DNA of 64,000 nt. It comes from an uncultured Candidatus Poseidoniales archaeon (GTDB lineage Archaea; Thermoplasmatota; Poseidoniia; Poseidoniales; Poseidoniaceae). This document shows positions 28,326-56,180 of this stretch, piece by piece. Below the pieces are notes generated by a model. It saw only the letters and a list, made by a program, of their open reading frames with translations, made no database searches and was not told the DNA's origin. Both the position numbers and the translations under genes were made by a program. Within the stretch, counting starts at the first letter, position 1, and each line of letters opens with the position of its first letter. The DNA is taken from the NCBI GenBank assembly GCA_902520595.1, contig CABYOM010000001.1, forward strand, positions 528 through 64,527, read 5' to 3'.

Positions 28326-28356
28326 CAGGAACGGTTATTAGAATCCTGAAAGAGTG

Positions 28357-31062
28357 ATGTTTGTGGTCCGAATCATTCAGCCTGCTGGGAAATCAGGAGC
28401 TCCTCTCGTTCGAATCGGACTTCTGGAAAATGTTGAGGAAGTCATTCTGCTCTGCTCGCCTGAATCGATGAATGATGAAGAGTTCGAGCGTATACAATCG
28501 GTCGCCAAAGAACTTGGGTCGAAAGCCAAATACACTCGCGAAATTATTCCAATCCTCGGAGTTACAGTTCCTGAAATTCTCGACAGATTGACTGAGGTTA
28601 AAGAAAAAATTAATCACGGGAGAATCGATGCAAAAATGCAGCCAACTAATTTCCTAAAAAAAATTATCCACTTAAGAACCAAATTTTTTAACAAAAAAAA
28701 ATCCACTGGAAACAAGACACTTGTTTCGACAAATGGTAGCACCCTCTTATTCGGCAATTGTATTTTATCAGTGTTTTCGGAATGCGAAACACTTACCATG
28801 AATTGGAAAGATTCTACATATTTTTTGTCACGCGGTGTTACAAAAAAAATGCCACCTATGTCTGAGGACTTTGTTTGGAAAATATTTGGTCTTCAACACA
28901 GAATTAAAGAAGGCAAGAGTCAGATTCTATCGGATGGAAGAATCATTGCACAACCATCAAGCGTTTCGCTTCGAGGTGAAAAAATTTATTTCGAATGGGA
29001 TAATGAGCCTTCGGACAATTATGATGCAGCAGAGGGAGCGAAAATAATTGCAAGTGAAATGCGAGCATTGTGTAGAATAAATGCCCCAACAAAATATGAT
29101 TTTGTAGTCAGGGGTTCTACAAAGTTTGATTACTTTGACAGGTATACAATTAACACAAATAAACCAGTTCAACCAAACAGCATGTTCAAACCAGCATCAA
29201 ACGAATTTTTTTCAACTATTCAAATGCCCAAATTTCCGCATGGTAAAGCCGCTTCAAATACATCTTGTCTTCACATTATCGTCAATGAAAGAGACATTAC
29301 TCCAACTGCGTTTTCAATAATGTTACACAAGCCTGACCATGTCGTACTTTGGGTGCTAAATACTGCAATGAATGACCAAAAACGTGCAGAATTTGAAGGA
29401 AAAATAACTGTTTTGGTTCATTACTTGACTGGCGAAATTATTCCTAAACTCAAAGATGCCATCAAACCGGTGGGGAGTGGCAAGGCATCAGAATTTCTCG
29501 AACAAAACCCTCCACCTAAGATGGATATTGAGTTTCACATGGTCAGTCTCCAGGAACTAGGAGATTCACAAGTAATCTTGCCACAAATTCCACCAGTAGA
29601 GAAGATATTGGTGGAATTGAACTCAGGTTTTCTCGGACTTCAAGACCAAATGATGAAAACTTTATCCAATGCAAATACAGACTTTGAACGATGGATTACA
29701 GATTCTAACAAATTTGAAGCAGTCCGGATTTCGGATATTGGTGGGAAAATAAAGGGCGGAAATCACCCTAATTTATCGAGATTATTGTTGCGGAAAAGAA
29801 TACCATTTGGAGGAACTATACTTTCGAATAAAGAAGATTATCTCCGTAAATTAGGGATTGTGCTGCCTATTCTTCTCAAAAATAAGAGGTTCGAAAATGG
29901 CCTTTGGAGGCCAAAAGGTGGATTATTCGTTAATGAAAATGGGAATAATATTGAAGTGAAAGGCAAGAAGTTTCGTCCAAGATCAATAGTAATATCTTCA
30001 AACTCATATTTTGAAGTGAGACTCGACAATGAAGAGTACTTTTTGACCTTCGGAAAGAGTAACCATATGGTTGGAATATGGTTAGAAGAACTCGCTGCTT
30101 ACCTCATTCATTTCTATTGGAAAAGTCATTTTTCAGTGTATGGAATGGAATCCAAACTAATTGCAGGAAATTGGATGCTAGGTACCTCGGATGATGTTGA
30201 CATTTACTGTATTACAGATTTTGGTGAAGTCATTGGCGAGGCAAAGGCCATTTCTAGGCTAGATTCCTCGAGAATTTCACCAATAATTGGCCAACTTTCA
30301 GGTGAAACCTTTGTTGTAGGTACTCGACATGGGCAAATGCCTATGCTAGTTATTGCTACTGATTCGTCTCCATTCGACGAGATAGCTAATCGAGAAGGGG
30401 TCGTCATATGCAGTTGGTGGGAACTTCAGTATCCTGAACGAATCATGCATCGATTCAAAACTGGCAGACGTAGTGAAGAAGAGTTGGCCGAAATAGCGGC
30501 TTTGAATGTGAAAGTTGCTGCTGCTAAAGAAGAGGCTGAAAAGAAAGCAAAAAAAGAAGCTGAAAAGAAAGCAAAAAAAGAAGCTGAAAAGAAATTCAAA
30601 AGGCCTGCTTTCGTTCTCCCTTTGTTTTGGAAACATATGCCTGATCAAGCAAGCTTTTTGGAAAAACCCATCGAAGAACAGAAGAGGCTATCAAATGAAA
30701 ACAAGGAAGAACGCCGCAAAAACAAGGTATATTCGCCGGAAGTTCAACAAAATACTTTGTTTGCTGGAACTGTGAATTATAAACAGTTCAAACTACTCGA
30801 CGATGGCCCTAAAAAAACTATTTCTATTTCTGGAGTTGAAGAACTCAAGGAGGCTGTCATCGCAATCGCAAAACCAAAACATAAAACCCTATTTGGAAAG
30901 ACAGGCGATGCAGTTACAGAACGTGAAGAGGCGAATGGTTACGATATCCGAGTGGTTGATATCTCTCTAAAACCAGAAACTTTGGCTACTGATGAAAACA
31001 TTACAGCATACCTTCTCGACTGCTACCCAATTCTTTCAGAAGATGAAAAAGAAGAATCATGA
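28357..31062 (+). CDS. Two-CARF-like + PD-(D/E)xK nuclease protein (Can1/Can2/Card1-like) with K/E-repeat C-terminal tail
   Basis: Two Rossmann-like units resemble Card1/Can2 CARF domains. The first has 'VVRIIQPAGKSGAPL...VEEVILLCSPES...LVSTNGSTLLFG'; the second has 'CLHIIVNERDITP...DHVVLWVLNT...ILVELNSGFLGLQDQMM'. They are followed by 'GIWLEELAAYLIHFY...GTSDDVDIYCITDFGEVIGEAKA' (D...ExK). Motif-level call only. Confidence 0.5.
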   Translation: MFVVRIIQPAGKSGAPLVRIGLLENVEEVILLCSPESMNDEEFERIQSVAKELGSKAKYTREIIPILGVTVPEILDRLTEVKEKINHGRIDAKMQPTNFLKKIIHLRTKFFNKKKSTGNKTLVSTNGSTLLFGNCILSVFSECETLTMNWKDSTYFLSRGVTKKMPPMSEDFVWKIFGLQHRIKEGKSQILSDGRIIAQPSSVSLRGEKIYFEWDNEPSDNYDAAEGAKIIASEMRALCRINAPTKYDFVVRGSTKFDYFDRYTINTNKPVQPNSMFKPASNEFFSTIQMPKFPHGKAASNTSCLHIIVNERDITPTAFSIMLHKPDHVVLWVLNTAMNDQKRAEFEGKITVLVHYLTGEIIPKLKDAIKPVGSGKASEFLEQNPPPKMDIEFHMVSLQELGDSQVILPQIPPVEKILVELNSGFLGLQDQMMKTLSNANTDFERWITDSNKFEAVRISDIGGKIKGGNHPNLSRLLLRKRIPFGGTILSNKEDYLRKLGIVLPILLKNKRFENGLWRPKGGLFVNENGNNIEVKGKKFRPRSIVISSNSYFEVRLDNEEYFLTFGKSNHMVGIWLEELAAYLIHFYWKSHFSVYGMESKLIAGNWMLGTSDDVDIYCITDFGEVIGEAKAISRLDSSRISPIIGQLSGETFVVGTRHGQMPMLVIATDSSPFDEIANREGVVICSWWELQYPERIMHRFKTGRRSEEELAEIAALNVKVAAAKEEAEKKAKKEAEKKAKKEAEKKFKRPAFVLPLFWKHMPDQASFLEKPIEEQKRLSNENKEERRKNKVYSPEVQQNTLFAGTVNYKQFKLLDDGPKKTISISGVEELKEAVIAIAKPKHKTLFGKTGDAVTEREEANGYDIRVVDISLKPETLATDENITAYLLDCYPILSEDEKEES
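30532..30594 (+). repeat. In-frame 24-bp tandem repeat (about 2.6 copies) encoding (EAEKKAKK)n
   Basis: gaggctgaaaagaaagcaaaaaaa / gaagctgaaaagaaagcaaaaaaa / gaagctgaaaagaaa, read directly from the sequence. Confidence 0.9.
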
Positions 31063-31123: not shown

Positions 31124-33421
31124 TTGAACTCAGCAAAAACCGCATGCTGCTCACTTGAGCACCTTTTTGTAATAGATACCCAAGGACATTGTATGACTGC
31201 TCAGCCAACTGGTTCTCTCGACCCGTGGTGCAAAGATGGCAGCGAATGTAAACCCGAATGGGATGCAGAAAAAATGGGCCATGAACATCCTCTGGAATTT
31301 ATGGCGGAGTTACTGCAACAGTGGCCCACTGGTGCGCCAACTGTTGATTTAGAAGACGAAGAGCGTCACCTACGTTTCATCCAGATTGTAGCTGGTTATC
31401 CTGAAATCGGCAGAGGAATGTATCCTCTAGACTGGCCGACACACCCAATGTCTGTGAAGGCGCTTCAACTCTCATTATTTCTCGATAGTTTGGCTGTTCC
31501 TGAAGAATTAATTCAAAATCCTTCAATTAAAGCACATTCCGTTCGAAGTGCAATATTGGCTTTGGATGCTCGAAAATACGAATATGGAAAAAAAGGGAAA
31601 TTGGATAAAACCCAACTCCAGTTATTACATGGAGAATGTTTAAGTCTGCTTTTCAAAGTAATTCGAGTCTATGTGAATTGGGAATCAAGCATTGATGAAA
31701 ATGGGGATAAATCAGCTTCCCATTATGAACATTTATTTCTAAATAACTTACATTCTAGCCAAAAGAAGCGGCGAGAAGGATGGTGGTTCGATTCCAATTC
31801 GGAAAAGAAATTCAAACTAGATCTGGCCAAATCTGAACAAGTGAACAGAGAGCAACATACTCACCAAATTAAACTCGGTTCTATTCAAAAATGGATTCAA
31901 GAATGGTCAACAGAAAATTCAAAAAATTACCCATATGAAGAAAACACTCGTCACAACTTACTTATTGGCGCATCTGTGATGTTAGAGTGCTTATTCGCCA
32001 AAATCAGGCAACATATAATCACAGAATACCGGCCAGGATGCGTCATAATTGATGGAGGTGGTAGAATTGAATTTCTCACGAAGAACGGTGATGTAGAGAG
32101 CGAGATGAAGAAAGTAATTGAAAACTCATTTCTAATTTCAAAGAACCATCATCACCCGTTTCAAGATATTATTGAACGAACTTTGCGCGAATACGGGGAT
32201 GGAAGAATAAACAAACCTCAGTTTCCTTCAATAGAATGGGACACTGATACCAACCCTCCGAGACCTAAACGGTCTGCTTACGAAAGATTCATCGGAGATA
32301 AAAGAGCTATCGAATTCTTTCCCCCAATAAAGTACAACGGTGAAGATCTCTACGAAGAGACGGAAAAAGATCAATTTGGCTGTTCGTTGTGCTCCAATGA
32401 AGATGGCCCCCTCGAATCAATATCTAAATCTGTAAAAAAGGGTCAATTTAAAATTCAAGATGTTTGTTTTCTACATGCTCTTATGTTTCGAATTGGAGAG
32501 GCGCAGCAAAGGCGCGACTCAAGCATTCGGCGAAAAGGAAAGAGCATTCCAAAATCAGTGGGAATTCATTCATGTACATTTCTAGACCTCAATGCCCTCG
32601 GTTCAATGTTTGGCACTCCAATTTCAAATACTCAAAACATTATGGAAAAAATACTCCACTTTCACCATCAATCAAAGAAAGATGGTGTTTCACAAAAGCA
32701 TTTACTGGTGATAGAACAAAAACGTAAAAACAAAATTGGAATGCAAAACAAGGTTCGCCAAATGTTAGAAAATAACAACGTGATCACTCAATCAATACTT
32801 GATGAAGAAAATGATGAGAATTTCAAATTGTATATACTTGAAACTCAAGAGCAATTAAGTACTTTCAAAGCCCGTAAGTCTTTCAGGTTTAACTCAAAAT
32901 GGTGGAGTTCTATATCTCAAATAGTTGATACGGATTCAAAACATTTTGGTGAAATTGGAGCATGGGTTGCTGCAGGAGACGACCTTCTCCTTGTGCGAAG
33001 GGGAGTCATTGGAGAAGAAGATGAAACACTTCAACAACAACTGAATGAACTTGATAAATTATTGAAACTTGAATTTCCGAATTCAGCCATAAAATTCTCA
33101 TTTTGTGCAGGATTAACTAATAGAAAAAGTTCCAATGTTGAAGGTCAAAAATGGGAAAAGATACCCGATATGATTCAACGAGCAAGAAAGAAAGAAAAAC
33201 AAGCGAAAAATTATTGGAAAACGAGAGCTGATAAAAGCGACCGTGATGATTTAATCTCAGAGTATGACTCAATTAGTGGAAGTATTAAACGTAAAAAAGG
33301 CTGGAAATTGATGAGTGAATGGGTTCCAGAAGACGGGCCTGTTTATTCAATTCCTTCAGTGAGAGAAGGAGTACCAAGAGAAGAAGAAAGTATGATTTAT
33401 CATTCAAGCATCTATGATTGA
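31124..33421 (+). CDS. Cas10-like (mCpol/GGDD-type) palm-domain nucleotide cyclase, orphan
   Basis: The motif order matches Cas10: 'RHNLLIGASVMLECL...GCVIIDGGGRIEFL' (palm 1); 'CSLCSNEDG...VCFLHALMFRIGE' (Zn knuckle); 'CTFLDLNALGSMFG' (DxD/N-LG metal motif, D488 at 32585-32587); 'ARKSFRFNSKWW'; 'GAWVAAGDDLLLV' (GGDD equivalent, 32969-32983); 'FSFCAGLT'. The track start is TTG at 31124; the first ATG is at 31193. Confidence 0.55.
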   Translation: MNSAKTACCSLEHLFVIDTQGHCMTAQPTGSLDPWCKDGSECKPEWDAEKMGHEHPLEFMAELLQQWPTGAPTVDLEDEERHLRFIQIVAGYPEIGRGMYPLDWPTHPMSVKALQLSLFLDSLAVPEELIQNPSIKAHSVRSAILALDARKYEYGKKGKLDKTQLQLLHGECLSLLFKVIRVYVNWESSIDENGDKSASHYEHLFLNNLHSSQKKRREGWWFDSNSEKKFKLDLAKSEQVNREQHTHQIKLGSIQKWIQEWSTENSKNYPYEENTRHNLLIGASVMLECLFAKIRQHIITEYRPGCVIIDGGGRIEFLTKNGDVESEMKKVIENSFLISKNHHHPFQDIIERTLREYGDGRINKPQFPSIEWDTDTNPPRPKRSAYERFIGDKRAIEFFPPIKYNGEDLYEETEKDQFGCSLCSNEDGPLESISKSVKKGQFKIQDVCFLHALMFRIGEAQQRRDSSIRRKGKSIPKSVGIHSCTFLDLNALGSMFGTPISNTQNIMEKILHFHHQSKKDGVSQKHLLVIEQKRKNKIGMQNKVRQMLENNNVITQSILDEENDENFKLYILETQEQLSTFKARKSFRFNSKWWSSISQIVDTDSKHFGEIGAWVAAGDDLLLVRRGVIGEEDETLQQQLNELDKLLKLEFPNSAIKFSFCAGLTNRKSSNVEGQKWEKIPDMIQRARKKEKQAKNYWKTRADKSDRDDLISEYDSISGSIKRKKGWKLMSEWVPEDGPVYSIPSVREGVPREEESMIYHSSIYD

Positions 33422-35194: not shown

Positions 35195-35857
35195 CTAGGC
35201 GTTCAATAGATTTTGAATGTGATTGATGTAAGCACCAATCCGGCGAATAGGGTCGTTTCCAATTTGATTCAGATGTGGTAGAATCTGGCCATGACAAATC
35301 CAATGGCTTGGTTTATTGGTTCCTGGAAGCGTATTGCTTGAGCCTACTCCGTAGGAAACACTTGGCGTATTTCCATTAAAGATGGAGACACTGGGTCGTC
35401 GCGTGATTTGGTCGTGGTTGAGCACATATGCGTGAGGTAAGCCAGATGATGCGTTTGGGCAATGAATGGCAATTTGCCAAAAACCGTTACTGGTTTTTCC
35501 TTTGGATGGAAACTGAAGAGAAATCATAGAGGTATGAGTTGCGTTGGTATGAATTCGAACTGGGCGAAGAGATGGATACTCAACTTTGAGTTCTGCCAAC
35601 CGTTCACGCGGGATGCCTGAAGCTCCACCTGCAACTTTCGCAACACCGACGTAAATGGTCGAGTCGCGATGCGCGGCAGCATTGTTATTCGAAATGACTG
35701 AACCCATCGCGTCATAAATGTCGAACTGTCCTTTCGGTGCGAGTTTCATATACTGAACAGCTTGCTTCAGGGTGGCATTCTGAGGTACTTCGACCCGTTG
35801 CTTTTGGGTTTGATCAAGGGTGTTGGCTACAGTCAGGGGTATCATTTGGTTTTGCAT
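35195..35857 (-). CDS. Ubl-E2 (UBC-like) fusion protein
   Basis: The N-terminal 79 aa are identical, bar one residue, to Ubl1 of the JAB protein and end in 'VAKVAGG'. The remainder follows a UBC pattern: 'RERLAELKVEY', 'FWQIAIHCPNASSGLPHAYVL', 'SHWICHGQIL' (candidate catalytic Cys) and 'IGAYINHIQNLL'. Confidence 0.6.
   Translation of the reverse strand: MQNQMIPLTVANTLDQTQKQRVEVPQNATLKQAVQYMKLAPKGQFDIYDAMGSVISNNNAAAHRDSTIYVGVAKVAGGASGIPRERLAELKVEYPSLRPVRIHTNATHTSMISLQFPSKGKTSNGFWQIAIHCPNASSGLPHAYVLNHDQITRRPSVSIFNGNTPSVSYGVGSSNTLPGTNKPSHWICHGQILPHLNQIGNDPIRRIGAYINHIQNLLNA
35621..35857 (-). repeat. Copy B of the ~237-bp near-identical duplication
   Basis: See copy A (34886..35122). Confidence 0.9.
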
Positions 35858-36612: not shown

Positions 36613-36671
36613 CTCCGTTGGTTTTCATAATCTTGGGTTGTTAAGATTCCAGATAGTTGTTAAATTTGATA
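36613..36671 (-). promoter_or_regulatory. Leader cassette 3: motif 36658-36671 + GGAG RBS
   Basis: Minus strand reads ...TTATCAAATTTAACAACTATCTGGAATCTTAACAACCCAAGATTATGAAAACCAACGGAGATGAAAAATATG. The motif lies inside the 3' end of the upstream ORF. Confidence 0.45.
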
Positions 36672-37253: not shown

Positions 37254-37300
37254 TTGTTCACTTCCTTCATACAATGGCCTCAACCAGAAGATGAGTTTTC

Positions 37301-43568: not shown

Positions 43569-43572
43569 TTTA

Positions 43573-50038: not shown

Positions 50039-53000
50039 ATTGCAAAACAAATACCAACTTCGGGAACTTGCCCATGAGAACTTAAAACCGTCCAATAAAG
50101 AGTTTGTTCCTCGAAGTGCATTTGATAAACATAAAAGTGGAGAGGTATTTGTAAACCCGTTACTTGCCCATTATGACAAATTCTGGGATGTTGAAGAAAG
50201 ATCTTTTTCCTTTATGCAAACTATGTGCAATGTACTAAAAGGCCCTATAGAATATGAAAAACAAAAAGCAATCGATGCCACACAATATCTGCTACTCGGC
50301 AAACCATCTTCTGGGAAAACCACTGAATTAAGACGAATTTCTCATGAAATACTTGGTCAAATTAATGATGATCAAATCATCCACCTTTGCAGCCTTCAAA
50401 ATACTTCAGCAGTTCAGCGAGAAATCGAATCAAAAGAGGATTTATGGAATTGGATGATGAGAAGCCATGAATCAAAGGTTTGGGCTGAAAAGAGATATTC
50501 TTTGGAACAATTCTCTCAACTACATCTAGAAAATAACTTGAAACCAATACTCTTAGTCGATACCGTCGATCTTCTCATTTACGGAAAAATTGGAACAGAA
50601 AGCAGCATGAAAATCACCGAGTTTTGGAAAGAACTTGTATCGGATATAGAATTACTTGGTTGGACAGTTCTGTGGAGTTGTAGAACATATGAATGGAATT
50701 TGATGAAAGAACATAATTCTGCAGATAGAATTAATCTCATTGAAGTATCTCTTCCAATCTTGAATGAGAAAGAAATTACTCAAAGGCTTGAAAGTATTCC
50801 TACCGCGGATTATTTGCAAAGGCACATGGTTACACTTTCATGGGCATTTCCAATTGTAATAGGCCACTACATTAATTACAGACAAAAATTTGACTGGGCA
50901 CCAATCATCGAAAATTTTCGTGAATTACATTATGAAATGCGAAGAACGAGTTGCGATGAGGTAATAGTGGCTAACAATGCTGGACCTGTAACTTGGATTG
51001 CTAGAGAATTGAACGAGGAAATAGCTACAGACATATTGTATAAAGGAATCAGAAGCGCAATAATTGATTACATTGTGAAGGTGTACCATTATGGTTTGGA
51101 AAAAGTGGAAAATCGGTGGGAGGAGATTGAAAAGGAATTTTACTCTGCTGCAAGACCAAAATCAAGTGTATCCCGTATACAAATTGATGCTTCTTACTTA
51201 GAAGATTACGATGACAAAACCCTTACTGAGGCCTTGATTAAAAGAGCCGTAGGTTTCGGAATATTAAACAAGAATGGCGAAACCTTAGAGATGACTCACC
51301 AACTATTTGCTGAGTATTGTGTTTGGATACACAAGAGAGAAACAGACCGAGAATTAATGAAAAAATTCCCCTCAACCATATTTAGAAGTGAGTTAAAAGA
51401 CGCTGACCAAGCAGTTTTGAATGAAGGTAGAGATTGGTTCCTCCCCTATATCCTGTTTAACATGGATTTAGCTAAATTCCCAGACCTTCCTTCCTTCGAA
51501 AAATCAACAACACATGCATGGAAACAATTGGCAGACTTTGCTCGACATGAACAAAAATCAGAATTACCAAAAACTAAGGCCAAGCACATCGAGAACCACA
51601 ATGTTCCGTTTAATCATTCACGATTGATAAATAAGGAAAAAGAACAATTGTTAGATAATTTAAACAGTACTTTTCCTCTAATCATTAACGGTCCACCAGG
51701 AGTTGGCAAATCTCACCTTTCGTATATCTGGATAGATAAGATGGCTTTAGGTTTGGACTGGGAGCAACTTTTACCCGATAAAAAGAGGCAGATTTTTGTT
51801 GCAGACATTAATGCTTTACCTACCGCCTATTTTATGACTCAAAGTCAAAGGTTAGCCAGTCAAATCTCTGATAAAATCGATGAATATTATGGGGTAGACA
51901 CACGGCCGGTTAAATTTGAAAATTGGGGCGTGAGTGAATATCTCGCTGATTTAGAAAAGTTACTTGGAATTGAAAGTGAAACTTTTTCGTTCGAAGATTT
52001 TGAAAAAGAATGGAAAGAATATTCAAAAGGAAATAATTCGAGAGGTATAGCCGATCTGAATAAAATGTCCATCCAAGCACTGTGGAATGAGTATTTGCAT
52101 AATGTTATCGATAATCAAGGCGATCGCAAAGATTTTGAAAAATACAGAAAGTCAATAGACCACATTTTCAAGTATTGTAAACACCCTGTTGACGCTAAAC
52201 AAGTGTTTGGGAAATGGGCAATTGAAAGACGTAAACGTAGCCCTAAACTCTCTCTTTCTGAGCAAGCTGGCCAGTGTATCAAGCATGTTCTTCCCATATT
52301 AGCTAACGGAAGTTTAGAACAGCGAGAATTGATACATACCATGCAACCAGATATTCTCGTTCTTGATGAAATACAGGATTTGCCTGCGCCGGTAATCTTG
52401 CTGATGCTCATTATGCACAAAGGTGAGACAAACACTGTAATGATGTGCGGAGATGATGAACAAACTCTCGAGTTAATTCAATTCAACTGGAGCACAGTAT
52501 TTAAACACATATCTGTTGCCATACATGAGCTCTATGAAAGTTATAAAGAAGATTCAGAGAGCATAATTTTTATTGAAAAATGGGTAAATATACAAGATCA
52601 ATCACTCAACAAAATCCAAGAAAAAAACACTAGTTCCCTGAAAATGGTTGAGCGAAGTATTCCTGAAATTGTAGATGTATTAAGTCAATCATGGCGTACA
52701 AGTGTCACCTCTCTTGAAGTGCCAGATGAAATTAAAATTAATCGAAACAAAGGAACTGGTGCCATAATAGCTGGACAGTTCTCCATTGATCGCGAAAATC
52801 GAAACGAAGAGAACGACATCGATCAAGGTGTTGAATATTATGAAGTTAAGAATACAGATTGGTTCGAAAAAGTAGCAACTGAAATCTATGAGCAGGCTTT
52901 AGATGTAGCGATTCTTCTTCCCGATCTGACCCAGTGGGAGAGGTATAAACAACTTCTCGAGGAATGGGATATCAACATTGAAATTTGGACTCCTCGTAAG

Positions 53001-56000
53001 ATTAAAGGACTCGAATATTCTGTTGTTATTGCAGTTAATCCTTGGCATATTGATAAAGAACATTTCACGGATGTGATTGGAAAGAATATCACTTCTTGGA
53101 GTGAGGCAGAACAATACGTAACAGATAATCATGGAACATCTGAACATTCAGAAGCGAAAATCAATGCGATTGCTCTATTAGCTAACCAAAGACGAAGACA
53201 TTCAAATATCATGCTCTCGAGAGGAATGGACCAATTGTTCATCATCTCTGAAAATGAGTCGGGGATGATTGAGACCAAAGATCCAAACTTTAGAGACCAA
53301 CAAAAAACAATACTTGACGATAACGCTGATTTGTTCAGTGAAAAAACCAATAAAAGTAACTATCAAGGTATCAATCGATTGATTAAGCGTCTTAGCATGA
53401 TTATTCTTTCAGTTGAAACTGAAAGTGATAGAAATCAGGTAATGTACAAATCAAAACATATTCTTCAAACTCTAAAGTTAGATGAGAATGTTGAAGATTA
53501 TTTACCCTTTTACCTACTTTCAAAGATTACTTCAGATCATTTTGACGAAGATGAAAAGAACGACCTCCTTGGAGTCGGGCTAAGTAGATTTAGTGAATTG
53601 AGTTCATTAAACCCGCCTCTCGGAGTGAAAAATTCTCATTCAGCTTATGGAAAGTGGAGTGACTTTGACGAATTACAAAGTTTTTGGGAGTATACCGAAA
53701 GTCTTGTGTCCGTATGTAAAGAGGACGAAGGCAGATTGAAAATTCCAATTCTTCTTTTCAACGAATACAATTCTAGGTTAGAAGAGTTCATTTTACGATT
53801 CTCTAGACCAAATGATAGTTGTTTCAAACTAGACGATACCCTCGATCAAAAGGAAAAAGAATCTCAGAAGAATATTATTTCCGACTATATCGTAAATCGA
53901 ATCTTTGGTGGTCAGAAAGAAAGTGAAATCGAAGCGGAACAATGGTGCACTGCTGCGAAAACCATCAATCTAAGTACATTTTCAATTACCTTAGATGTTG
54001 AGAAGAATCCGAGATACAAACTGCTGTTAGATATTTTACAACGACAAGAAATGGACGATTATAGTGATGAAATTTCGAAGAAATCTTCTTCCAAGAGCAA
54101 GGATAAGAACGAATTACTGAAAATCGATACTGATTTTTGGAAAGAGGGGAGTCATCACCTTTCCCGTATTGACCCTTATGATTTATTTGATATTAGCAAA
54201 AGAATTTGCAGCCAATTAACGATATCAAGCAATTCTCTCAGTATCGAAGGTGTGAATTTTCTCAGTAAGCTAATCCCTAGAAGTTTGAAGGAGAGAAGGC
54301 AAGAATTGGAAAATCGATTCAACACCGGGGGTATAACCGATTTATGTAAAATTTGCAATGCTTTAGAAAAACAAGCATCGAACAACAAAATATCTCTACC
54401 TCTAATCTCTTCACAGATTGAAGATTATGTTTCACAAATCATAGCCAACAAGTTATTTGAGAATATAGCAAATCCAAGTGTCCGGAAAGCATTGTTAGGT
54501 AATTCATTCGGATTATACGATCTGTTTAAATCTAAGATCATGAAAACTAAAAACAAAGAGTTCAATTTAGGTAAGGCTATGCAATTAGGCCGTTTGTTAA
54601 TAAATGATCTAAGCCATGGGAATAAAGCCCCAAAACCGAGTGATTGGGAACTTACAATCATAACAGATCTTCAAAACTTTGCCACAACAGAAATTGGCCG
54701 AGATCGTTTTGTCACAACTACCTACATGGAAGACATAAAAATTACAGACGTAGAAGACATTTTTTGGAACGGAAACGACAAGACTGAAATGCTTCCAAAA
54801 CAAATTCAGGGAGAATTCCGAGAGACCCTATTTGCAACTTCATTACGCTATGAACTCGATGATAGAGGACGGAAAAACCTTATCTTTTTCTTAATTAAGA
54901 AGACATACATTGACAATTTTTCAAGATATACTATCCAAAGAAATGAGGAAGTAATGAGAGAAAAGATTGCTGAAAAAATAAACCTACTTCCTCTTAAACA
55001 AAGTGAGGTAGATTCAGAGAAATGGAATATTATTCTCGACGATGAAGAATTCGCCAAAAAATTGGTCTCTATACCCTATGAAGGCGTTTTATCTGATATC
55101 GACCCAGATATATATTTTGGAAGAACAGTGGGCGGCTTTATCAATGCCAAGTCATGGAATAAATCCTTGCAGAAGGAACTGACGAGTTTAAATAAAGGGA
55201 AAAGTATGAAACTTGCCATTGCCGAGATCCAGAAGCGAACTGATTCTGCGTATGATGCAGCAGGCGGCGAAGGAATGGGTTCTACCGAACTTCAATCACT
55301 TAAAATCAGTACACATGAACATTTGAGAAAGAATATATCTCTTCCACATTGGAGAGAGCAAGTGCTAAGAAAAAACAACAAGAATCTTACAAGTAGATGG
55401 GCGAATGATTTTATTCCAAATCTAAGTGCTAAACAATCAATAATTTTGTATTCGGATGTTAACAAAATAAAGAGGAAATTGTACAAATCCTATCTACACC
55501 TCGAAAAGGTGTTCAAAGAGGCGAAGGGAAAACTGAATTCGCGTAATTTACGCGAAACACAGTCTCTGGCGCATAAAGGTTTTACATGGATTAAGAACAA
55601 ATGGGGTGATGCAGAAGTGGAAGTATTTTTCACCGCCATAAAGAAAGAAATTGAATCATTCGATATGAATTCCTTCCTTGAAAAATTTGTCAATTATTTC
55701 CATACGAATATTAAGCTAAAGATGCAATGGAAGTCTCTTAGTAGTTCATTTTTAGAAGTTGAATATCCAAATACATACGAACTATTAGGACAGTTTGGAA
55801 TTAAAGAAATGAGGGATTTACTTGATAGCTTAACTGGGTCATCACGGGGGATTCACGAGTTTTCACTACTCAACATACCTTTAGACAGTCAGAAATTCTT
55901 GATTGACTTCTTACAAAAGTTTGGAAAAGATGAGAAATACATCCCGAGTACAACCCCTATAGATGAAAAACTAGATTCTTCAGAAACAATTGGAAATTAT

Positions 56001-56180
56001 CAAGTATTGAAACCACAATCCAAGCAGTTAAGAGCGACCTATAAGCAAAGAGATTTGCTGATTGTTAAAGCATTGCCGGAATTGGAGAGCGATTCCATCC
56101 GTAATCTACGTCCTTTAACGCGATTTGAAGAGGAAGTGTTACGGTCGATTTCTTCCGCGTTCAACGATGGACAACTCTAG
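50031..56180 (+). CDS. Giant (2049 aa) P-loop NTPase + SF1 (UvrD-like) helicase-core protein with long helical C-terminal region
   Basis: The first P-loop is 'LLGKPSSGKTTEL' with Walker B 'ILLVDTVDLL'. The second is 'IINGPPGVGKSH' with 'ILVLDEIQDL', 'VMMCGDDEQTL', 'QSWRTS', 'KIKGLEYSVVIAV' and 'IMLSRGMDQLFII' (the UvrD-type motif order). The GTG start overlaps the previous gene by 8 nt. Confidence 0.65.
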   Translation: MIKLQNKYQLRELAHENLKPSNKEFVPRSAFDKHKSGEVFVNPLLAHYDKFWDVEERSFSFMQTMCNVLKGPIEYEKQKAIDATQYLLLGKPSSGKTTELRRISHEILGQINDDQIIHLCSLQNTSAVQREIESKEDLWNWMMRSHESKVWAEKRYSLEQFSQLHLENNLKPILLVDTVDLLIYGKIGTESSMKITEFWKELVSDIELLGWTVLWSCRTYEWNLMKEHNSADRINLIEVSLPILNEKEITQRLESIPTADYLQRHMVTLSWAFPIVIGHYINYRQKFDWAPIIENFRELHYEMRRTSCDEVIVANNAGPVTWIARELNEEIATDILYKGIRSAIIDYIVKVYHYGLEKVENRWEEIEKEFYSAARPKSSVSRIQIDASYLEDYDDKTLTEALIKRAVGFGILNKNGETLEMTHQLFAEYCVWIHKRETDRELMKKFPSTIFRSELKDADQAVLNEGRDWFLPYILFNMDLAKFPDLPSFEKSTTHAWKQLADFARHEQKSELPKTKAKHIENHNVPFNHSRLINKEKEQLLDNLNSTFPLIINGPPGVGKSHLSYIWIDKMALGLDWEQLLPDKKRQIFVADINALPTAYFMTQSQRLASQISDKIDEYYGVDTRPVKFENWGVSEYLADLEKLLGIESETFSFEDFEKEWKEYSKGNNSRGIADLNKMSIQALWNEYLHNVIDNQGDRKDFEKYRKSIDHIFKYCKHPVDAKQVFGKWAIERRKRSPKLSLSEQAGQCIKHVLPILANGSLEQRELIHTMQPDILVLDEIQDLPAPVILLMLIMHKGETNTVMMCGDDEQTLELIQFNWSTVFKHISVAIHELYESYKEDSESIIFIEKWVNIQDQSLNKIQEKNTSSLKMVERSIPEIVDVLSQSWRTSVTSLEVPDEIKINRNKGTGAIIAGQFSIDRENRNEENDIDQGVEYYEVKNTDWFEKVATEIYEQALDVAILLPDLTQWERYKQLLEEWDINIEIWTPRKIKGLEYSVVIAVNPWHIDKEHFTDVIGKNITSWSEAEQYVTDNHGTSEHSEAKINAIALLANQRRRHSNIMLSRGMDQLFIISENESGMIETKDPNFRDQQKTILDDNADLFSEKTNKSNYQGINRLIKRLSMIILSVETESDRNQVMYKSKHILQTLKLDENVEDYLPFYLLSKITSDHFDEDEKNDLLGVGLSRFSELSSLNPPLGVKNSHSAYGKWSDFDELQSFWEYTESLVSVCKEDEGRLKIPILLFNEYNSRLEEFILRFSRPNDSCFKLDDTLDQKEKESQKNIISDYIVNRIFGGQKESEIEAEQWCTAAKTINLSTFSITLDVEKNPRYKLLLDILQRQEMDDYSDEISKKSSSKSKDKNELLKIDTDFWKEGSHHLSRIDPYDLFDISKRICSQLTISSNSLSIEGVNFLSKLIPRSLKERRQELENRFNTGGITDLCKICNALEKQASNNKISLPLISSQIEDYVSQIIANKLFENIANPSVRKALLGNSFGLYDLFKSKIMKTKNKEFNLGKAMQLGRLLINDLSHGNKAPKPSDWELTIITDLQNFATTEIGRDRFVTTTYMEDIKITDVEDIFWNGNDKTEMLPKQIQGEFRETLFATSLRYELDDRGRKNLIFFLIKKTYIDNFSRYTIQRNEEVMREKIAEKINLLPLKQSEVDSEKWNIILDDEEFAKKLVSIPYEGVLSDIDPDIYFGRTVGGFINAKSWNKSLQKELTSLNKGKSMKLAIAEIQKRTDSAYDAAGGEGMGSTELQSLKISTHEHLRKNISLPHWREQVLRKNNKNLTSRWANDFIPNLSAKQSIILYSDVNKIKRKLYKSYLHLEKVFKEAKGKLNSRNLRETQSLAHKGFTWIKNKWGDAEVEVFFTAIKKEIESFDMNSFLEKFVNYFHTNIKLKMQWKSLSSSFLEVEYPNTYELLGQFGIKEMRDLLDSLTGSSRGIHEFSLLNIPLDSQKFLIDFLQKFGKDEKYIPSTTPIDEKLDSSETIGNYQVLKPQSKQLRATYKQRDLLIVKALPELESDSIRNLRPLTRFEEEVLRSISSAFNDGQL

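What the first reader, a model, noticed from the sequence alone, without database searches (positions are those of the whole stretch)
28354..56180. ~28-kb A+T-rich island joining a CRISPR-less Cas10-like/CARF module, a full ubiquitin-like conjugation + Cdc48 cluster, and a giant NTPase/helicase operon
Housekeeping genes flank the island on both sides: a class-V aminotransferase ends at 28325 and a DsrE-like gene ends at 56177. Everything between them is non-housekeeping and visibly richer in A+T (N/K/I-rich proteins, long A/T runs). The island has three modules. (1) On the + strand, a two-CARF/PD-(D/E)xK protein and a Cas10-like cyclase. (2) On the - strand, Ubl fusions, a JAMM protease, two E2-like domains, two E1s, Cdc48, a Zn-ribbon, and tiny acidic, basic, Cys-rich or membrane proteins. 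(3) On the + strand, a CARF-like/wHTH regulator, two unknowns and a 2049-aa P-loop/SF1-helicase protein. Type II CBASS is known to pair a nucleotide cyclase (CD-NTase) with an E1/E2 (Cap2) and a JAB (Cap3). Bil/Bub operons are known to pair Ubl, E1, E2 and a DUB for antiviral defence. I know of no system that pairs a Cas10-type cyclase and CARF effectors with a multi-component Ubl cascade plus a Cdc48 unfoldase, and none in an archaeon. My working model is that a cyclic-oligonucleotide signal and Ubl conjugation/unfolding regulate each other within one conflict system.
Basis: partly seen in the sequence, partly recalled or inferred. Interest (0 to 1): 0.92.

Follow-up and report, generated by a model that had tools for sequence, protein, structure and literature searches.

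The report
CRISPR-less Cas10-like signalling plus ubiquitin-like/Cdc48 locus
In marine group II archaea (Poseidoniales), a Cas10-like enzyme with no CRISPR partners, a CARF-type signal receptor, a giant ATPase/helicase, and a full ubiquitin-like tagging system with its own Cdc48 unfoldase recur together, which looks like an undescribed antiviral or conflict system.

Summary
Window 28354-56180 lies between a class-V aminotransferase and DsrE. Its GC is 0.404 against 0.473 in the flanks, though the deficit is uneven.

- **Cas10-like protein (765 aa):** it has no sequence-profile match. A confident AF2 model finds only Cas10/Csm1/Cmr2 as its top 15 PDB matches. The motifs D465, AGDD and a Zn finger are invariant.
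- **CARF regulator (556 aa):** structure supports CARF + wHTH.
- **902-aa protein:** only the PD-(D/E)xK nuclease is supported. Its two CARFs were not shown.
- **Ubl module:** JAB, two E1s and Cdc48 are confirmed by profiles. The Ubls and two E2s rest on motifs and context.

The family is confined to Poseidoniales (205 clusters among 1.84 billion). The Cas10-like gene abuts the JAB gene in seven non-redundant loci. The CARF-wHTH/397-aa pair diverges from the Ubl operon in four more. A palindromic motif links the modules.

In Ubl-less loci, the Cas10-like, CARF-wHTH, 397-aa and 2049-aa homologues recur with a canonical CARF and a viperin-kinase pair. So modules 1 and 3 form a backbone, and the Ubl/Cdc48 block looks like a swappable arm.

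The locus is syntenic across lineages, so it is not a recent insertion. Function and mechanism are inferred.

The parts
28354..31062 (+). 902-aa accessory protein. It has an unassigned N-terminal ~560 aa, a PD-(D/E)xK nuclease core (D616...E629-x-K631), and a Lys/Glu-rich repeat with a C-terminal tail.
   Evidence: PADLOC CARF_PDDEXK 7.9e-6, matching only the nuclease part of the profile at residues 561-721. One homologue hits NERD at 3.2e-5. D616, K631, G646 and Q647 are invariant in A4. CARF was not detected. A homologue is present in L001 at 45% identity and absent in L003.
31124..33421 (+). Cas10-like two-Palm-domain protein. The annotated start is probably 31193 (742 aa). Domain order: N-terminal helical domain, Palm1 (IDGGGR hairpin), CxxC...CxxH Zn finger, Palm2 (DGNSLG ... 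AGDD), C-terminal helical domain.
   Evidence: AF2 pLDDT 81.8, pTM 0.88. Foldseek PDB top 15 are all Cas10/Csm1/Cmr2, E 1.4e-4 to 2.7e-3, ~800 aligned columns, TM 0.24-0.28. Invariant residues in 49 sequences: D465, N467, G470, A594-G595-D596-D597, C397, H428. No Pfam, NCBIfam, PADLOC or PDB sequence match.
33467..35131 (-). Ubl1(...VAGG) - acidic linker - Ubl2(...PGGG) - JAMM/JAB metalloprotease - coiled coil.
   Evidence: Pfam JAB 6.5e-7. Intact EMGG and HTHPx7Sx2D motifs. Ubl alignment A8 has an invariant C-terminal GG; the only PDB hits are sub-threshold beta-grasp proteins. The gene lies convergent with and adjacent to the Cas10-like gene in the window and six other non-redundant loci, L001, L003, L006, L007, L009 and L010.
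35195..35857 (-). Ubl1 fused to E2-like domain A (candidate catalytic Cys in HW[IV]CHG).
   Evidence: The N-terminal 79 aa are 96-97% identical to Ubl1 of the JAB protein. A 241-nt DNA repeat is 99% identical between 34886-35126 and 35621-35861. It aligns with E2 family B around one invariant Cys. Homologues occur in L001, L003 and L006.
36010..36309 (-). 99-aa highly acidic small ORF; lineage-specific.
   Evidence: Sequence. It is preceded by the conserved promoter/5' cassette and palindrome-like motif at 36355-36368. BLAST found no homologue in any fetched locus, L001 included.
36370..36612 (-). 80-aa Cys-rich small ORF. Its Cys pattern is shared with the N-terminal part of the 221-aa membrane protein.
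   Evidence: BLAST links it to the L001 homologue of the 221-aa protein, 39% over 28 aa. The same 5' cassette and motif lie at 36658-36671.
36641..37096 (-). 151-aa conserved protein of unknown function.
   Evidence: Homologues in L001 (93%), L003 (50%) and L012 (35%). No family match.
37089..37283 (-). 64-aa basic small ORF.
   Evidence: 91% identical homologue in L001.
37319..37984 (-). 221-aa protein with an acidic N-terminal motif (EGIDLADL), a Cys-rich segment and a multi-pass hydrophobic C-terminal half. It is a candidate membrane effector or anchor.
   Evidence: Sequence. Homologues in L001 (84%), L014 (two copies, 27%) and L007 (33%). The TCAAATTTAA motif lies at 38041-38050 upstream.
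38060..38308 (-). Small Zn-ribbon protein (CxCG...CxCG). The conserved part starts at MRLWIDD, so it is probably ~60 aa. It overlaps the E1a gene.
   Evidence: Conserved in L001, L003, L011, L012 and L014, always next to E1a.
38245..39813 (-). E1-like adenylating enzyme a (ThiF fold with an N-terminal extension).
   Evidence: Pfam ThiF 6.1e-23. PADLOC E1-E2/BilD weak hits on the E1 part. GAGGLG and RHNLNRQ motifs. 96% identical in L001 and 44-78% in other loci.
39798..41987 (-). Dedicated Cdc48-type double-ring AAA+ ATPase (N-D1-D2) with an acidic Trp-containing tail and no HbYX motif.
   Evidence: Pfam AAA 3.6e-82, two stretches. TIGR01243 CDC48 scores 496 bits, below the 802-bit cut-off. CDC48_N is recorded for the homologues in L006 and L012. 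It always lies between the two E1 genes (L006, L007, L011, L012, L014), and its stop overlaps the E1a start.
42024..43595 (-). E1-like adenylating enzyme b.
   Evidence: Pfam ThiF 5.4e-35. 18 PADLOC E1-E2 models match the E1 part. Only 29% identical to E1a over the ThiF core. Conserved in L006, L007, L011, L012 and L014.
43573..44136 (-). E2-like protein B (HENI ... EICGVC ... NPNPDD). In L006 and L007 the orthologue carries Ubl1 at its N-terminus.
   Evidence: Alignment A5. Sub-threshold PDB hits to UBE2N and another E2, E 0.45-2, over the Cys-to-PNPDD segment. Homologues listed.
44173..45282 (-). 369-aa first gene of the Ubl operon. It has an N-terminal Ubl2-like domain without GG, then beta-rich domains with an invariant RGFWGCCE. 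Function unknown; it could be a substrate adaptor or E3-like.
   Evidence: Alignment A7. No PDB or family match. Conserved in L011, L012 and L014. Its last codons, TGTCAAATTTAA, contain the promoter motif of the next gene.
45314..45327 (.). Perfect palindrome TGTTAAAATTAACA in the divergent 369-aa/556-aa intergenic region; a candidate operator. Related sites lie at 35180-35193, 36355-36368 and 36658-36671. TCAAATTTAA cores lie at 35182, 36357, 36660, 38041 and 44173.
   Evidence: TGTYAAWWTTRACA with <=1 mismatch: 4 hits against 0.36 expected. TCAAATTTAA: 6 hits against 0.55 expected, and 5 of them lie 55-65 nt upstream of minus-strand genes in the Ubl module. The motif is conserved in L001, L003, L011, L012 and L014.
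45376..47046 (+). 556-aa protein with the order CARF - wHTH - alpha/beta domain - wHTH. It is the predicted signal receptor and transcription regulator, or alternatively a ring nuclease.
   Evidence: AF2 pLDDT 73.7. Foldseek top hits are Cad1 CARF (1.8e-5), Sis0811 ring nuclease, SSO1393, Cami1, Cam1, Csm6 and Can2, plus the AspA wHTH. Weak MarR/AspA HMM hits. G104-R105-G106 is invariant after beta4. Homologues occur in L011-L015 (39-60%) and L002, L016, L017 (27%).
47043..48236 (+). 397-aa partner of the CARF-wHTH protein: an N-terminal CxxC Zn-ribbon-like segment and a helical C-terminal domain (YLHK...EPxW). Function unknown.
   Evidence: It always follows the 556-aa gene, overlapping it by 4 nt here: L011, L012, L014 (31-50%) and L002, L016, L017 (21-23%). 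Alignment A6 has no meaningful PDB hit.
48257..50038 (+). 593-aa unknown protein; a variable partner of the giant NTPase.
   Evidence: 26% homologue in L011. The protein at the same position in L016/L017 shows no detectable similarity. No family match.
50031..56180 (+). 2049-aa protein: an N-terminal P-loop NTPase (GKPSSGKT), an SF1-type helicase core (GPPGVGKS, DEIQ, GDDEQ) and ~1000 aa of unassigned C-terminus.
   Evidence: Weak Pfam hits AAA_19 4.6e-5, nSTAND3 1.8e-4 and Viral_helicase1 5.4e-4. PADLOC mad8 1.5e-7. Homologues in L011 (33% over 1840 aa) and in Ubl-less L016 (23% over 1016 aa, E 4e-29) and L017, where the gene lies in an operon directly after the Cas10-like gene.

Best explanation
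This is a Poseidoniales-specific, multi-gene conflict (probably antiviral) locus built on a CRISPR-independent signalling backbone.

**Shown**
- The backbone has four parts: a full-length Cas10-like two-Palm enzyme with an invariant D...GDD metal triad; a CARF-wHTH protein with an obligate 397-aa partner; and a giant P-loop/SF1-helicase protein.
- These recur together in two locus types.
- In this window's type, a complete Ubl apparatus sits between them. It comprises two Ubl species encoded only as N-terminal fusions ending in GG, a JAMM protease, two E1s, two E2-like proteins, a Zn-ribbon protein, a 369-aa Ubl-like protein and a dedicated Cdc48.
- A palindromic cis-motif is shared between the CARF-wHTH promoter region and several Ubl-module promoters.

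**Inferred mechanism**
1. The giant NTPase/helicase, and/or the fast-evolving N-terminal domain of the Cas10-like protein, senses an infection cue. This replaces the crRNA complex of type III CRISPR.
2. The Cas10-like Palm2 site makes a (cyclic) oligonucleotide.
3. The CARF-wHTH protein binds it and switches transcription at the TGTTAA-N2-TTAACA-type sites.
4. JAB releases Ubl1 and Ubl2 from their fusion precursors.
5. The two E1/E2 pairs conjugate the Ubls to viral or host targets.
6. Cdc48 extracts or unfolds the conjugates.
7. The 902-aa nuclease and the small membrane and Cys-rich proteins are lineage-variable accessory effectors.
For: **Fold and motifs**
- Cas10-like fold and motifs.
- CARF + wHTH fold.
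- JAB, E1, E1 and Cdc48 profile matches and intact catalytic motifs.

**Gene neighbourhoods**
- The Cas10-like gene is adjacent to the JAB gene in the window and in L001, L003, L006, L007, L009 and L010, at 26-60% identity.
- The 556-aa/397-aa pair is divergent from the 369-aa/E2/E1b/Cdc48/E1a operon in L011, L012, L014 and their near-copies.
- L003 and L011 share identical Zn-ribbon proteins. Together they rebuild the island from the aminotransferase flank across all module-1 to module-3 genes; a ~1050-aa gene follows, placed like the window's RND gene (not compared).
- Ubl-less loci L002, L016 and L017 keep the Cas10-like, 556-aa, 397-aa and 2049-aa homologues. They add a sequence-detectable CARF protein (2e-11, 2e-9) and pVip (2e-74) with a kinase. 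L002 continues into DISARM, DpdF-like and GmrSD genes, which is a defence island.

**Signs of an arms race and sensing**
- Against L001, the Cas10-like protein is 60% identical and the 902-aa protein 45%, while neighbours are 93-99%.
- One family member carries an N-terminal TPR-S sensor domain.

**Shared regulation and Ubl processing**
- Shared cis-motif.
- The Ubl1 copies are 99% identical at the DNA level, as expected if one free Ubl is released.
Against: - No biochemical or expression data exist for any of this.
- The Cas10-like assignment rests on a predicted structure with low global TM-scores (0.24-0.30). There is no sequence-profile link to Cas10.
- The second Asp of the usual DxD-type motif is an invariant Asn (DGNSLG).
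- No HD dyad was found.
- The CARF of the 556-aa protein is undetectable by sequence.
- Its closest CARF+wHTH structural analogue is a ring nuclease, so it may degrade the signal rather than transduce it.
- The Ubl and E2 assignments are sub-threshold.
- The core Ubl/Cdc48 genes are highly conserved, near native GC and at a fixed chromosomal site next to katG/ahpC. That would also fit a cellular stress pathway.
- The 902- and 593-aa proteins, and in some lineages the 2049-aa protein, are dispensable.
Confidence: 0.55

Rival explanations
1. The locus is a defence or variable-gene hotspot. Two or three independent systems (a Cas10-like/CARF signalling system, a Bil-like Ubl system, a helicase system) merely sit side by side, with no functional cross-talk.
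For: - The Cas10-like/CARF-wHTH/397/2049 set exists without any Ubl genes.
- In L002 the neighbours are unrelated defence systems: DISARM, GmrSD and a GajA-like ATPase.
- Composition differs sharply between modules.
- The 902-, 593- and 2049-aa genes come and go.
Against: - The Ubl block is inserted exactly between the Cas10-like gene and the CARF-wHTH gene. It keeps both junctions across lineages in which the Cas10-like protein has diverged to 26-38% identity.
- The palindromic motif of the CARF-wHTH divergent promoter recurs at Ubl-module promoters.
- A dTMP-kinase-like gene is shared between Ubl-type loci (L003, L011) and viperin-type loci (28% identity).
- No Ubl/E1/Cdc48 cluster of this type was seen without a flanking backbone gene in any locus long enough to tell.
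Confidence: 0.15
2. The locus is a lineage-specific cellular proteostasis or stress pathway: a SAMP/ubiquitin-like tagging system with a Cdc48 segregase, regulated by a second messenger. It serves oxidative-stress or protein-quality control rather than virus defence.
For: - It occupies a fixed chromosomal position next to katG and ahpC in three lineages.
- E1a, Cdc48 and the 151-aa protein are 93-99% identical to L001, with GC near native.
- There are no integrase, transposase or flanking repeats.
- From my own knowledge: archaeal Ubl systems (SAMPs) act in stress responses.
Against: - The Cas10-like family is tiny and restricted, at 205 clusters.
- Its members and the 902-, 593- and 2049-aa proteins evolve far faster than their neighbours.
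- Homologues lie in a bona fide defence island with viperin, DISARM and GmrSD.
- One member carries a TPR-S sensor fusion.
- L007, L009 and L010 carry the cluster in a different chromosomal neighbourhood.
Confidence: 0.2
3. The 765-aa protein has a Cas10-like fold but is not a signal-producing cyclase. It could be a template-independent polymerase, a nucleotide-binding scaffold or sensor, or a target or regulator of Ubl conjugation. The CARF-wHTH protein would then respond to some other ligand.
For: - DGNSLG replaces the usual acidic pair.
- There is no sequence similarity to any Cas10 or GGDEF profile.
- Foldseek also gives weaker Pol I palm hits.
- Global TM-scores are low.
Against: - D465 and AGDD (D596, D597) are invariant in 49 sequences that otherwise share ~25-30% identity. 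From my own knowledge, one Asp from beta1 plus the two of GGDD form the metal site in Cas10 and GGDEF enzymes.
- CARF proteins, one of them detectable by sequence, are the constant companions of this family. That is the hallmark of Cas10-type cOA signalling.
Confidence: 0.2

Closest known systems
Type III CRISPR-Cas cOA signalling (Cas10 + CARF effectors, ring nucleases, Csa3-type CARF-wHTH regulators)
   Same: - A full-length Cas10-like architecture: helical N-domain, Palm1, Zn finger, Palm2 with a GGDD-type hairpin, and a helical C-domain.
- CARF proteins encoded alongside it, including a CARF+wHTH protein structurally like Sis0811/SSO1393.
- A canonical CARF protein in sister loci.
   Different: - No CRISPR array, no Cas7/Cas5/Cas11 and no Cas6.
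- No sequence-profile membership in Cas10.
- No HD dyad.
- AGDD and DGN motif variants.
- Its partners are a giant NTPase/helicase plus either a Ubl/Cdc48 or a viperin module.
Panoptes / mCpol systems (minimal CRISPR polymerase with no CRISPR; PMC12657230, PMC12657218)
   Same: A Cas10-family Palm enzyme works outside CRISPR in a nucleotide-signalling defence system.
   Different: By the titles and abstracts of those papers, mCpol is a miniature single-Palm enzyme whose decoy or inhibitory signal controls its effector. Here the protein is a ~740-aa full-length Cas10-like enzyme with CARF-wHTH, helicase and Ubl partners. No homology to mCpol was tested.
Type II CBASS (CD-NTase + Cap2 E1/E2 + Cap3 JAB)
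   Same: A nucleotide-signal synthase is encoded with E1, E2 and JAB activities. PADLOC E1-E2 (Cap2) models weakly match the E1 domains.
   Different: - The synthase is a Palm-domain Cas10-like enzyme, not a Pol-beta-fold CD-NTase.
- E1 and E2 are separate proteins and both are duplicated.
- Genuine Ubl domains with GG ends exist.
- The cyclase C-terminus is unconserved and lacks a Gly end, so Cap2-style conjugation of the cyclase is unlikely.
- A Cdc48 is present.
Bil / Bub bacterial ubiquitination-like defence operons (Ubl, E1, E2, JAB DUB; PMC10557695)
   Same: - The same component set: Ubl + E1 + E2 + JAB.
- The JAB presumably pre-processes the Ubl to expose its C-terminus, as shown for BilC/BilA in that paper.
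- A weak BilD match to E1a (0.0028).
   Different: - It is archaeal.
- It has two E1s, two E2-like proteins and two Ubl species.
- The Ubls are encoded only as fusions to the JAB and E2 proteins, and their copies evolve in concert.
- A Cdc48 is embedded between the E1 genes.
- The cluster is flanked by Cas10-like and CARF genes.
- That paper mentions no AAA+, CARF or Cas10.
FtsH ternary conflict systems with a complete Ubl-conjugation set (Kaur et al. 2020, PMC7159879, section 21)
   Same: A predicted conflict system combines JAB, E1, a Ubl-E2 fusion protein and an AAA+ unfoldase-type ATPase.
   Different: - Those systems are bacterial, centred on vWA-MoxR, and use an FtsH-type AAA+, a RING E3, EAD1 adaptor domains and caspase-like effectors.
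- None of vWA, MoxR, RING or EAD1 was found here.
- That paper does not mention Cas10, and mentions CARF only in its reference list.
Archaeal Ubl systems (haloarchaeal SAMP/UbaA/JAMM with Cdc48 and proteasome, PMC4895103; Caldiarchaeum Ub/E1/E2/RING/Rpn11 operon, PMC5654768)
   Same: Archaeal Ubl with a GG end, a ThiF-type E1 and a JAMM protease. Cdc48 is functionally linked to Ubl-tagged substrates in Haloferax.
   Different: - SAMP systems lack E2s.
- The Caldiarchaeum operon has a RING E3, and no Cdc48 or Cas10/CARF is among the components its abstract lists.
- Here Cdc48 is inside the operon and lacks a C-terminal HbYX-type motif (it ends ...EWVIP).

Membership tests
Cas10 (type III CRISPR large subunit) | Two Palm (cyclase/polymerase) domains with a Zn finger and a GGDD-type hairpin | tested here: met
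   The AF2 model matches Cas10 chains over ~800 columns, and the top 15 Foldseek hits are all Cas10. AGDD, D465 and CxxC...CxxH are invariant. Global TM is only 0.24-0.30.
Cas10 (type III CRISPR large subunit) | Match to Cas10 sequence profiles (Pfam, NCBIfam, PADLOC, or PDB Cas10 sequences) | tested here: not met
   No hit. An exhaustive profile search finds only 205 clusters; none of those inspected shows any link to canonical Cas10: no Pfam domain on record for the 81 closest homologues, none beyond SAP and TPR-S in ten further members scanned.
Cas10 (type III CRISPR large subunit) | Encoded with Cas7/Cas5/Cas11 subunits and a CRISPR array | tested here: not met
   No repeat array in the window. 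No Cas profile hits in the island. None appear in the gene lists of 17 related loci.
Cas10 (type III CRISPR large subunit) | N-terminal HD nuclease domain with an HD dyad | tested here: inconclusive
   The N-terminal 220 aa are helical with conserved H59, D80, D98, D125 and H187, but no HD dyad. No profile match.
Cas10 (type III CRISPR large subunit) | Synthesis of cyclic oligoadenylate | not testable with these tools
   Needs enzyme assays.
CARF domain superfamily (556-aa protein) | CARF Rossmann-like fold | tested here: met
   Foldseek hits: Cad1 CARF 1.8e-5; isolated Cad1-CARF TMt 0.45-0.47; Cam1 CARF TMt 0.57; also Sis0811, SSO1393, Csm6 and Can2.
CARF domain superfamily (556-aa protein) | Match to CARF sequence profiles | tested here: not met
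   No Pfam, PADLOC, NCBIfam or PDB sequence match. hhalign against the canonical CARF of L002 was negative.
CARF domain superfamily (902-aa protein) | CARF fold or profile match in the N-terminal 560 aa | tested here: inconclusive
   Sequence tests were all negative. Only loose motif resemblance remains (STNGST, NSGF after predicted strands).
Type II CBASS | CD-NTase cyclase plus a fused E1-E2 (Cap2) and a JAB (Cap3) | tested here: not met
   No CD-NTase hit. E1 and E2 are separate proteins. PADLOC E1-E2 models match only the E1 segment.
Bil-type Ubl defence operon | Ubl, E2, JAB and E1 in one operon | tested here: inconclusive
   JAB and E1 are confirmed. The BilD match is weak at 0.0028. The E2 and Ubl are supported only by motifs and sub-threshold hits. 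The extra components (second E1 and E2, Cdc48) go beyond Bil.
CDC48/VAT AAA+ subfamily | N-domain plus two AAA modules, scoring above the TIGR01243 cut-off | tested here: inconclusive
   Two AAA modules with intact Walker A and B motifs. CDC48_N is recorded for homologues. TIGR01243 scores 496 bits, below the 802-bit cut-off, so this is a divergent paralogue.
FtsH/vWA-MoxR ternary conflict system | vWA, MoxR and FtsH-type AAA+ components | tested here: not met
   No vWA or MoxR hits. The AAA+ is Cdc48-type.

The most novel reading that the evidence does not exclude
A previously unrecognised archaeal immune architecture in which a CRISPR-independent, full-length Cas10-family enzyme works with a giant NTPase/helicase sensor. 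Through a CARF-wHTH receptor, it drives interchangeable effector arms. One arm is a eukaryote-like, two-branch ubiquitin-type conjugation cascade (2 Ubl, 2 E1, 2 E2, a JAMM DUB) coupled to a dedicated Cdc48 segregase. The other is a viperin-kinase arm. This would be the first link between Cas10-type nucleotide signalling and Ubl/Cdc48-mediated protein tagging and extraction. It would also be a defence system specific to the ocean's dominant planktonic archaea.
Probability: 0.35. Interest if true: 0.92.

Novelty: new variant of a known kind. Interest (0 to 1): 0.8.

Why it matters
- **Ecology:** Poseidoniales (marine group II) are among the most abundant archaea in the surface ocean. They are uncultured, and almost nothing is known about how they resist their viruses.
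- **Cas10 outside CRISPR:** the locus would show a full-length Cas10-type enzyme operating without CRISPR. It would extend CARF-based signalling to transcriptional control of whole effector modules.
- **A ubiquitin-type cascade in defence:** it would give the first example in which nucleotide second-messenger immunity is wired to a complete ubiquitin-like cascade with a Cdc48 unfoldase. That protein triad (Ubl conjugation, DUB, Cdc48/p97) is central to eukaryotic proteostasis and immunity.
- **Eukaryote-like gene organisation:** the Ubl is encoded only as fusion precursors whose copies evolve in concert. This parallels how eukaryotic ubiquitin genes are organised.
- **New protein families:** the locus supplies several families with no detectable relatives (369-, 397-, 593- and 2049-aa proteins) for structural and biochemical study.

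Tried and rejected
1. **Sequence-profile routes to Cas10 or CARF.** Pfam, NCBIfam, PADLOC, and phmmer/hmmsearch against PDB gave nothing for the 765-, 556- or 902-aa proteins. Only predicted structures resolved the first two.
2. **CARF in the 902-aa protein.** I ran hhalign of its profile, and of N-terminal sub-domains, against the 556-aa CARF and against a canonical CARF from L002, and tested for an internal duplication. All were negative.
3. **Integrated mobile element.** Rejected. There is no integrase or transposase, no flanking direct repeats, and the tRNA-Leu is 10 kb away. The locus is syntenic in diverged relatives.
4. **CRISPR array or other RNA genes.** None were found.
5. **Viral origin.** There are no Cas10-like relatives in IMG/VR contigs.
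6. **CBASS-style conjugation of the cyclase C-terminus.** Unlikely, because the C-terminus is unconserved with no Gly end.
7. **Direct docking of this Cdc48 on the 20S proteasome through an HbYX tail.** The tail ends EWVIP with no penultimate Tyr, so this is not supported.
8. **Homology between the 593-aa protein and the protein at the same position in L016/L017.** Not detected.
9. **PDB profile searches for the 369- and 397-aa proteins.** No meaningful hits.
10. **Empty aminotransferase/DsrE junction in a relative.** I did not search for one systematically, and none appeared among the loci fetched.
11. **Exact-sequence contig look-ups.** Two look-ups of the window's own proteins found no record.

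Full report
**Source and setting.** The window encodes an archaeal Pus10. Every relative of the island's proteins that carries an organism name comes from Poseidoniales, the marine group II archaea: Poseidoniaceae, Poseidonia and Ca. Thalassoarchaea. The 765-aa protein is 100% identical to a protein on an NCBI contig of 67,523 bp. The left flank encodes an ABC permease, KatG, an AhpC-family peroxiredoxin and a class-V aminotransferase. The right flank encodes DsrE, an RND-type transporter and Pus10.

**The observation.**
- Island GC is 0.404 against 0.473 for the flanks (profile).
- The deficit is concentrated in four genes: 902-aa (0.389), 765-aa (0.386), 593-aa (0.360) and 2049-aa (0.365), at z -2.7 to -3.7 against 25 flank genes.
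- The JAB, Ubl-E2 and Cdc48 genes are at background (0.458-0.466).
- No CRISPR array, tandem array or RNA family lies in the island.

**Module 1: the Cas10-like protein.** The 765-aa protein (probably 742 aa, starting at 31193) has no Pfam, NCBIfam, PADLOC or PDB sequence match, even as a 49-sequence profile.
- An AlphaFold2 model built on that alignment is confident (pLDDT 81.8, pTM 0.88).
- Its top 15 Foldseek matches in the PDB are all Cas10/Csm1/Cmr2 chains, aligned over ~800 columns (E 1.4e-4 to 2.7e-3). DNA polymerase I palm domains follow at weaker scores.
- Global TM-scores are low (0.24-0.30), as expected for a four- to five-domain protein, so this is a fold-level call only.
- The invariant residues map where a Cas10 would have them: a beta-hairpin IDGGGR (Palm1), a CxxC...CxxH Zn site, DGNSLG at the end of the first Palm2 strand, and AGDD at the Palm2 hairpin.
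- From my own knowledge, the D465/D596/D597 triad matches the metal site of Cas10 and GGDEF enzymes. The Asn in DGN and the absent HD dyad are departures.
- An exhaustive profile search of 1.84 billion representatives finds only 205 clusters. It is a small family that sequence does not connect to canonical Cas10.
- One member carries an N-terminal TPR-S sensor domain.

**Module 1: the 902-aa protein.** It has a PD-(D/E)xK core (PADLOC CARF_PDDEXK 7.9e-6, nuclease part only; NERD in one homologue; D616, E629-x-K631 and Q647 conserved).

**Module 2: enzymes confirmed by profiles.**
- JAB (Pfam 6.5e-7, intact JAMM motifs).
- Two ThiF-type E1s (6e-23 and 5e-35), both with GxGxxG and RxNLNRQ motifs.
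- A double-ring AAA+ of the Cdc48 type. TIGR01243 gives 1.6e-148 but scores below its cut-off, so this is a divergent paralogue. CDC48_N is recorded for homologues.

**Module 2: Ubls and E2s.**
- The JAB protein begins with two ~75-aa domains that end in VAGG and PGGG.
- Ubl1 recurs at 96-97% protein identity and 99% DNA identity over 241 nt at the N-terminus of the 220-aa protein.
- In L006 and L007, Ubl1 also heads the orthologue of the 187-aa protein.
- The C-terminal parts of the 220- and 187-aa proteins align around a single invariant Cys. The 187-aa family has HENI and NPNPDD motifs spaced as in UBC enzymes. PDB profile hits to UBE2N are only sub-threshold.
- The Ubl profile gives only sub-threshold beta-grasp hits.
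- So the Ubl and E2 calls are probable, not proven.
- Two Ubl types, two E1s and two E2s suggest two parallel cascades or a heteromeric E1.

**Module 2: other genes.** A Zn-ribbon protein, a 151-aa protein, a Cys-rich/multi-pass membrane protein and the 369-aa Ubl2-like protein are conserved in relatives. BLAST found no homologue of the acidic 99-aa ORF in any fetched locus, and none of the Cys-rich 80-aa ORF apart from a short match of its Cys motif to the membrane protein's L001 homologue.

**Module 3.**
- The AF2 model of the 556-aa protein (pLDDT 73.7) matches CARF proteins first: Cad1 at 1.8e-5, the CARF+wHTH ring nuclease Sis0811, SSO1393, Cami1, Cam1, Csm6 and Can2. It also matches an AspA wHTH.
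- Weak MarR and AspA HMM hits mark two wHTH domains. An invariant GRG follows strand 4.
- The 397- and 593-aa proteins have no detectable relatives of known function.
- The 2049-aa protein has two P-loops and SF1-helicase motifs with weak profile support.

**Comparative genomics is the decisive evidence.**
- The Cas10-like gene lies tail-to-tail with the JAB gene in the window and in L001, L003, L006, L007, L009 and L010, at 60-26% identity.
- The 556/397 pair is transcribed divergently from the 369-E2-E1b-Cdc48-E1a operon in L011, L012 and L014. L011 also has the 593- and 2049-aa homologues, followed by a ~1050-aa gene at the position of the window's RND transporter gene (homology not tested).
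- L003 and L011 share identical Zn-ribbon proteins. Together they reconstruct the island from the aminotransferase flank through all three modules, without the 902-aa gene; the right-hand flank match (a ~1050-aa gene) is positional only.
- The locus is therefore an old resident in this clade. L007, L009 and L010 carry it in a different neighbourhood.
- Against L001, KatG is 95% identical, E1a 96% and Cdc48 99%. The Cas10-like protein is 60% and the 902-aa protein 45%. That contrast is typical of arms-race genes.

**A second architecture sharpens the picture.** In L002, L016 and L017 there is no Ubl gene within 10 kb on either side of the Cas10-like gene, or to the contig end.
- The Cas10-like homologue (27%) sits in an operon behind a prokaryotic viperin (PADLOC 2e-74), a dTMP-kinase-like protein and a 124-130-aa protein.
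- In L016 and L017 it is followed by an unknown ~525-aa protein and a 2049-aa homologue (23% over 1016 aa, E 4e-29).
- A few kb upstream lie a sequence-detectable CARF protein (2e-11, 2e-9) and homologues of the 556- and 397-aa proteins.
- In L002, DISARM (DrmAB, DrmC), a DpdF-like helicase and GmrSD follow.
- So modules 1 and 3 form a backbone that exists with or without Ubl/Cdc48. The company it keeps is antiviral.
- A related dTMP-kinase-like gene also occurs inside the Ubl module of L003 and L011.

**Cis-elements.**
- TCAAATTTAA occurs six times in the window against 0.55 expected. Five of the sites lie 55-65 nt upstream of minus-strand genes of the Ubl module.
- It extends to a palindrome-like TGTYAAWWTTRACA, with 4 hits against 0.36 expected. 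One hit is a perfect palindrome in the 369/556 divergent intergenic region.
- The motif is conserved in related loci.
- This is the only direct sequence link between modules 2 and 3. It is what a dimeric wHTH regulator would be expected to bind.

**Interpretation.** I consider a single conflict system the best reading (0.55). In it, the Cas10-like enzyme signals through the CARF-wHTH protein, and the Ubl/Cdc48 block is an inducible effector arm. Every step after gene content and linkage is inference. The rivals are:
- independent neighbours in a hotspot (0.15);
- a cellular stress or proteostasis pathway (0.2);
- a non-cyclase role for the Cas10-like protein (0.2, not exclusive of the others).

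**Literature.** Full-text searches found no paper combining Cas10 with Ubl, JAB or Cdc48, and no paper that by its title or abstract describes a ubiquitin-like system in Poseidoniales. The closest precedents are:
- type II CBASS;
- Bil/Bub operons;
- Panoptes/mCpol;
- the FtsH ternary systems, which pair a Ubl-conjugation set with an AAA+.

Noticed in passing
window 35182-35191, 36357-36366, 36660-36669, 38041-38050, 44173-44182 (minus strand); 45314-45327: A conserved promoter/operator-like motif, TCAAATTTAA, extends to the palindrome TGTYAAWWTTRACA. It lies upstream of five Ubl-module genes and in the divergent 369/556 intergenic region. It is far above chance (6 vs 0.55 expected; 4 vs 0.36 expected) and conserved in related loci.
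   Followed up: partly
window 44173-44184: The conserved C-terminal 'CQI*' of the 369-aa protein family is encoded by TGTCAAATTTAA, which is the promoter motif of the downstream E2 gene. A cis-element, rather than protein function, probably constrains those codons.
   Followed up: partly
window 34886-35126 and 35621-35861: A 241-nt direct repeat at 99% identity encodes the Ubl1 domain at the start of both the JAB protein and the Ubl-E2 protein. Within each genome the Ubl1 copies stay near-identical (concerted evolution), as with eukaryotic ubiquitin fusion genes.
   Followed up: partly
window 35118-35198, 36293-36373, 36596-36645, 35972-36021: An ~80-nt 5' cassette (promoter, GGAG, ATGAAAAACATG) is repeated before several genes. 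The shared 'MKNM' N-termini are probably an artefact, and the true start is likely the second ATG, 9 nt after GGAG.
   Followed up: partly
window 34842-34875 and 39820-39853; 37960-37984: An acidic Trp motif (DDDWD) is shared by the JAB protein's inter-Ubl linker and the Cdc48 C-terminal tail. EGIDL[AD][DE][LI] is shared by that linker and the N-terminus of the 221-aa membrane protein. These may be short docking motifs for a common partner.
   Followed up: no
L002 8070-12022; L016 8093-11983; L017 8003-11980: In Ubl-less loci, a prokaryotic viperin (PADLOC 2e-74), a dTMP-kinase-like protein and a 124-130-aa protein form an overlapping operon that ends in the Cas10-like gene. I know of no described viperin/Cas10-like association.
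   Followed up: partly
L002 12097-17478: A single 1793-aa protein matches both DrmA (1e-164) and DrmB (1.7e-63). This DrmA-DrmB fusion in an archaeal DISARM-like cluster is followed by a short DrmC (PLD) gene.
   Followed up: no
L001 14945-16640 and 12202-14985: In the 60%-identity relative, the JAB gene is split over several frames (frameshifts or assembly errors). The Ubl-E2 protein carries both Ubl1 and Ubl2. An extra 927-aa gene with no family match follows the Cas10-like gene.
   Followed up: no
window 30526-30594: A 24-nt tandem repeat (2.9 copies, 95% match) encodes (AEKKAKKE)n in the tail of the 902-aa protein.
   Followed up: no
protein P0192 (Cas10-like family member; no locus available): An 1156-aa family member has an N-terminal TPR-S ('sensor') domain (Pfam 1.2e-18) fused to the Cas10-like region. 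Another member, P0136, has a SAP domain.
   Followed up: no
L003 15415-16364; L011 18-967: Some Ubl-type loci carry a dTMP-kinase-like gene and a TFIIS-type Zn-ribbon gene inside the variable stretch between the Ubl-E2 and E1a genes. That stretch carries different small genes in each lineage.
   Followed up: partly
window 51910-51919 (minus strand): A sixth exact copy of TCAAATTTAA lies antisense inside the 2049-aa gene, near short antisense ORFs (51887-52080). This may be chance or an internal antisense promoter.
   Followed up: no
window 13078-15456: An RNase R / RNase II-family exoribonuclease (TIGR02063 1.8e-92, below cut-off) is encoded in this archaeal genome, upstream of a CopA-type ATPase and a tRNA-Leu (18123-18207).
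   Followed up: no
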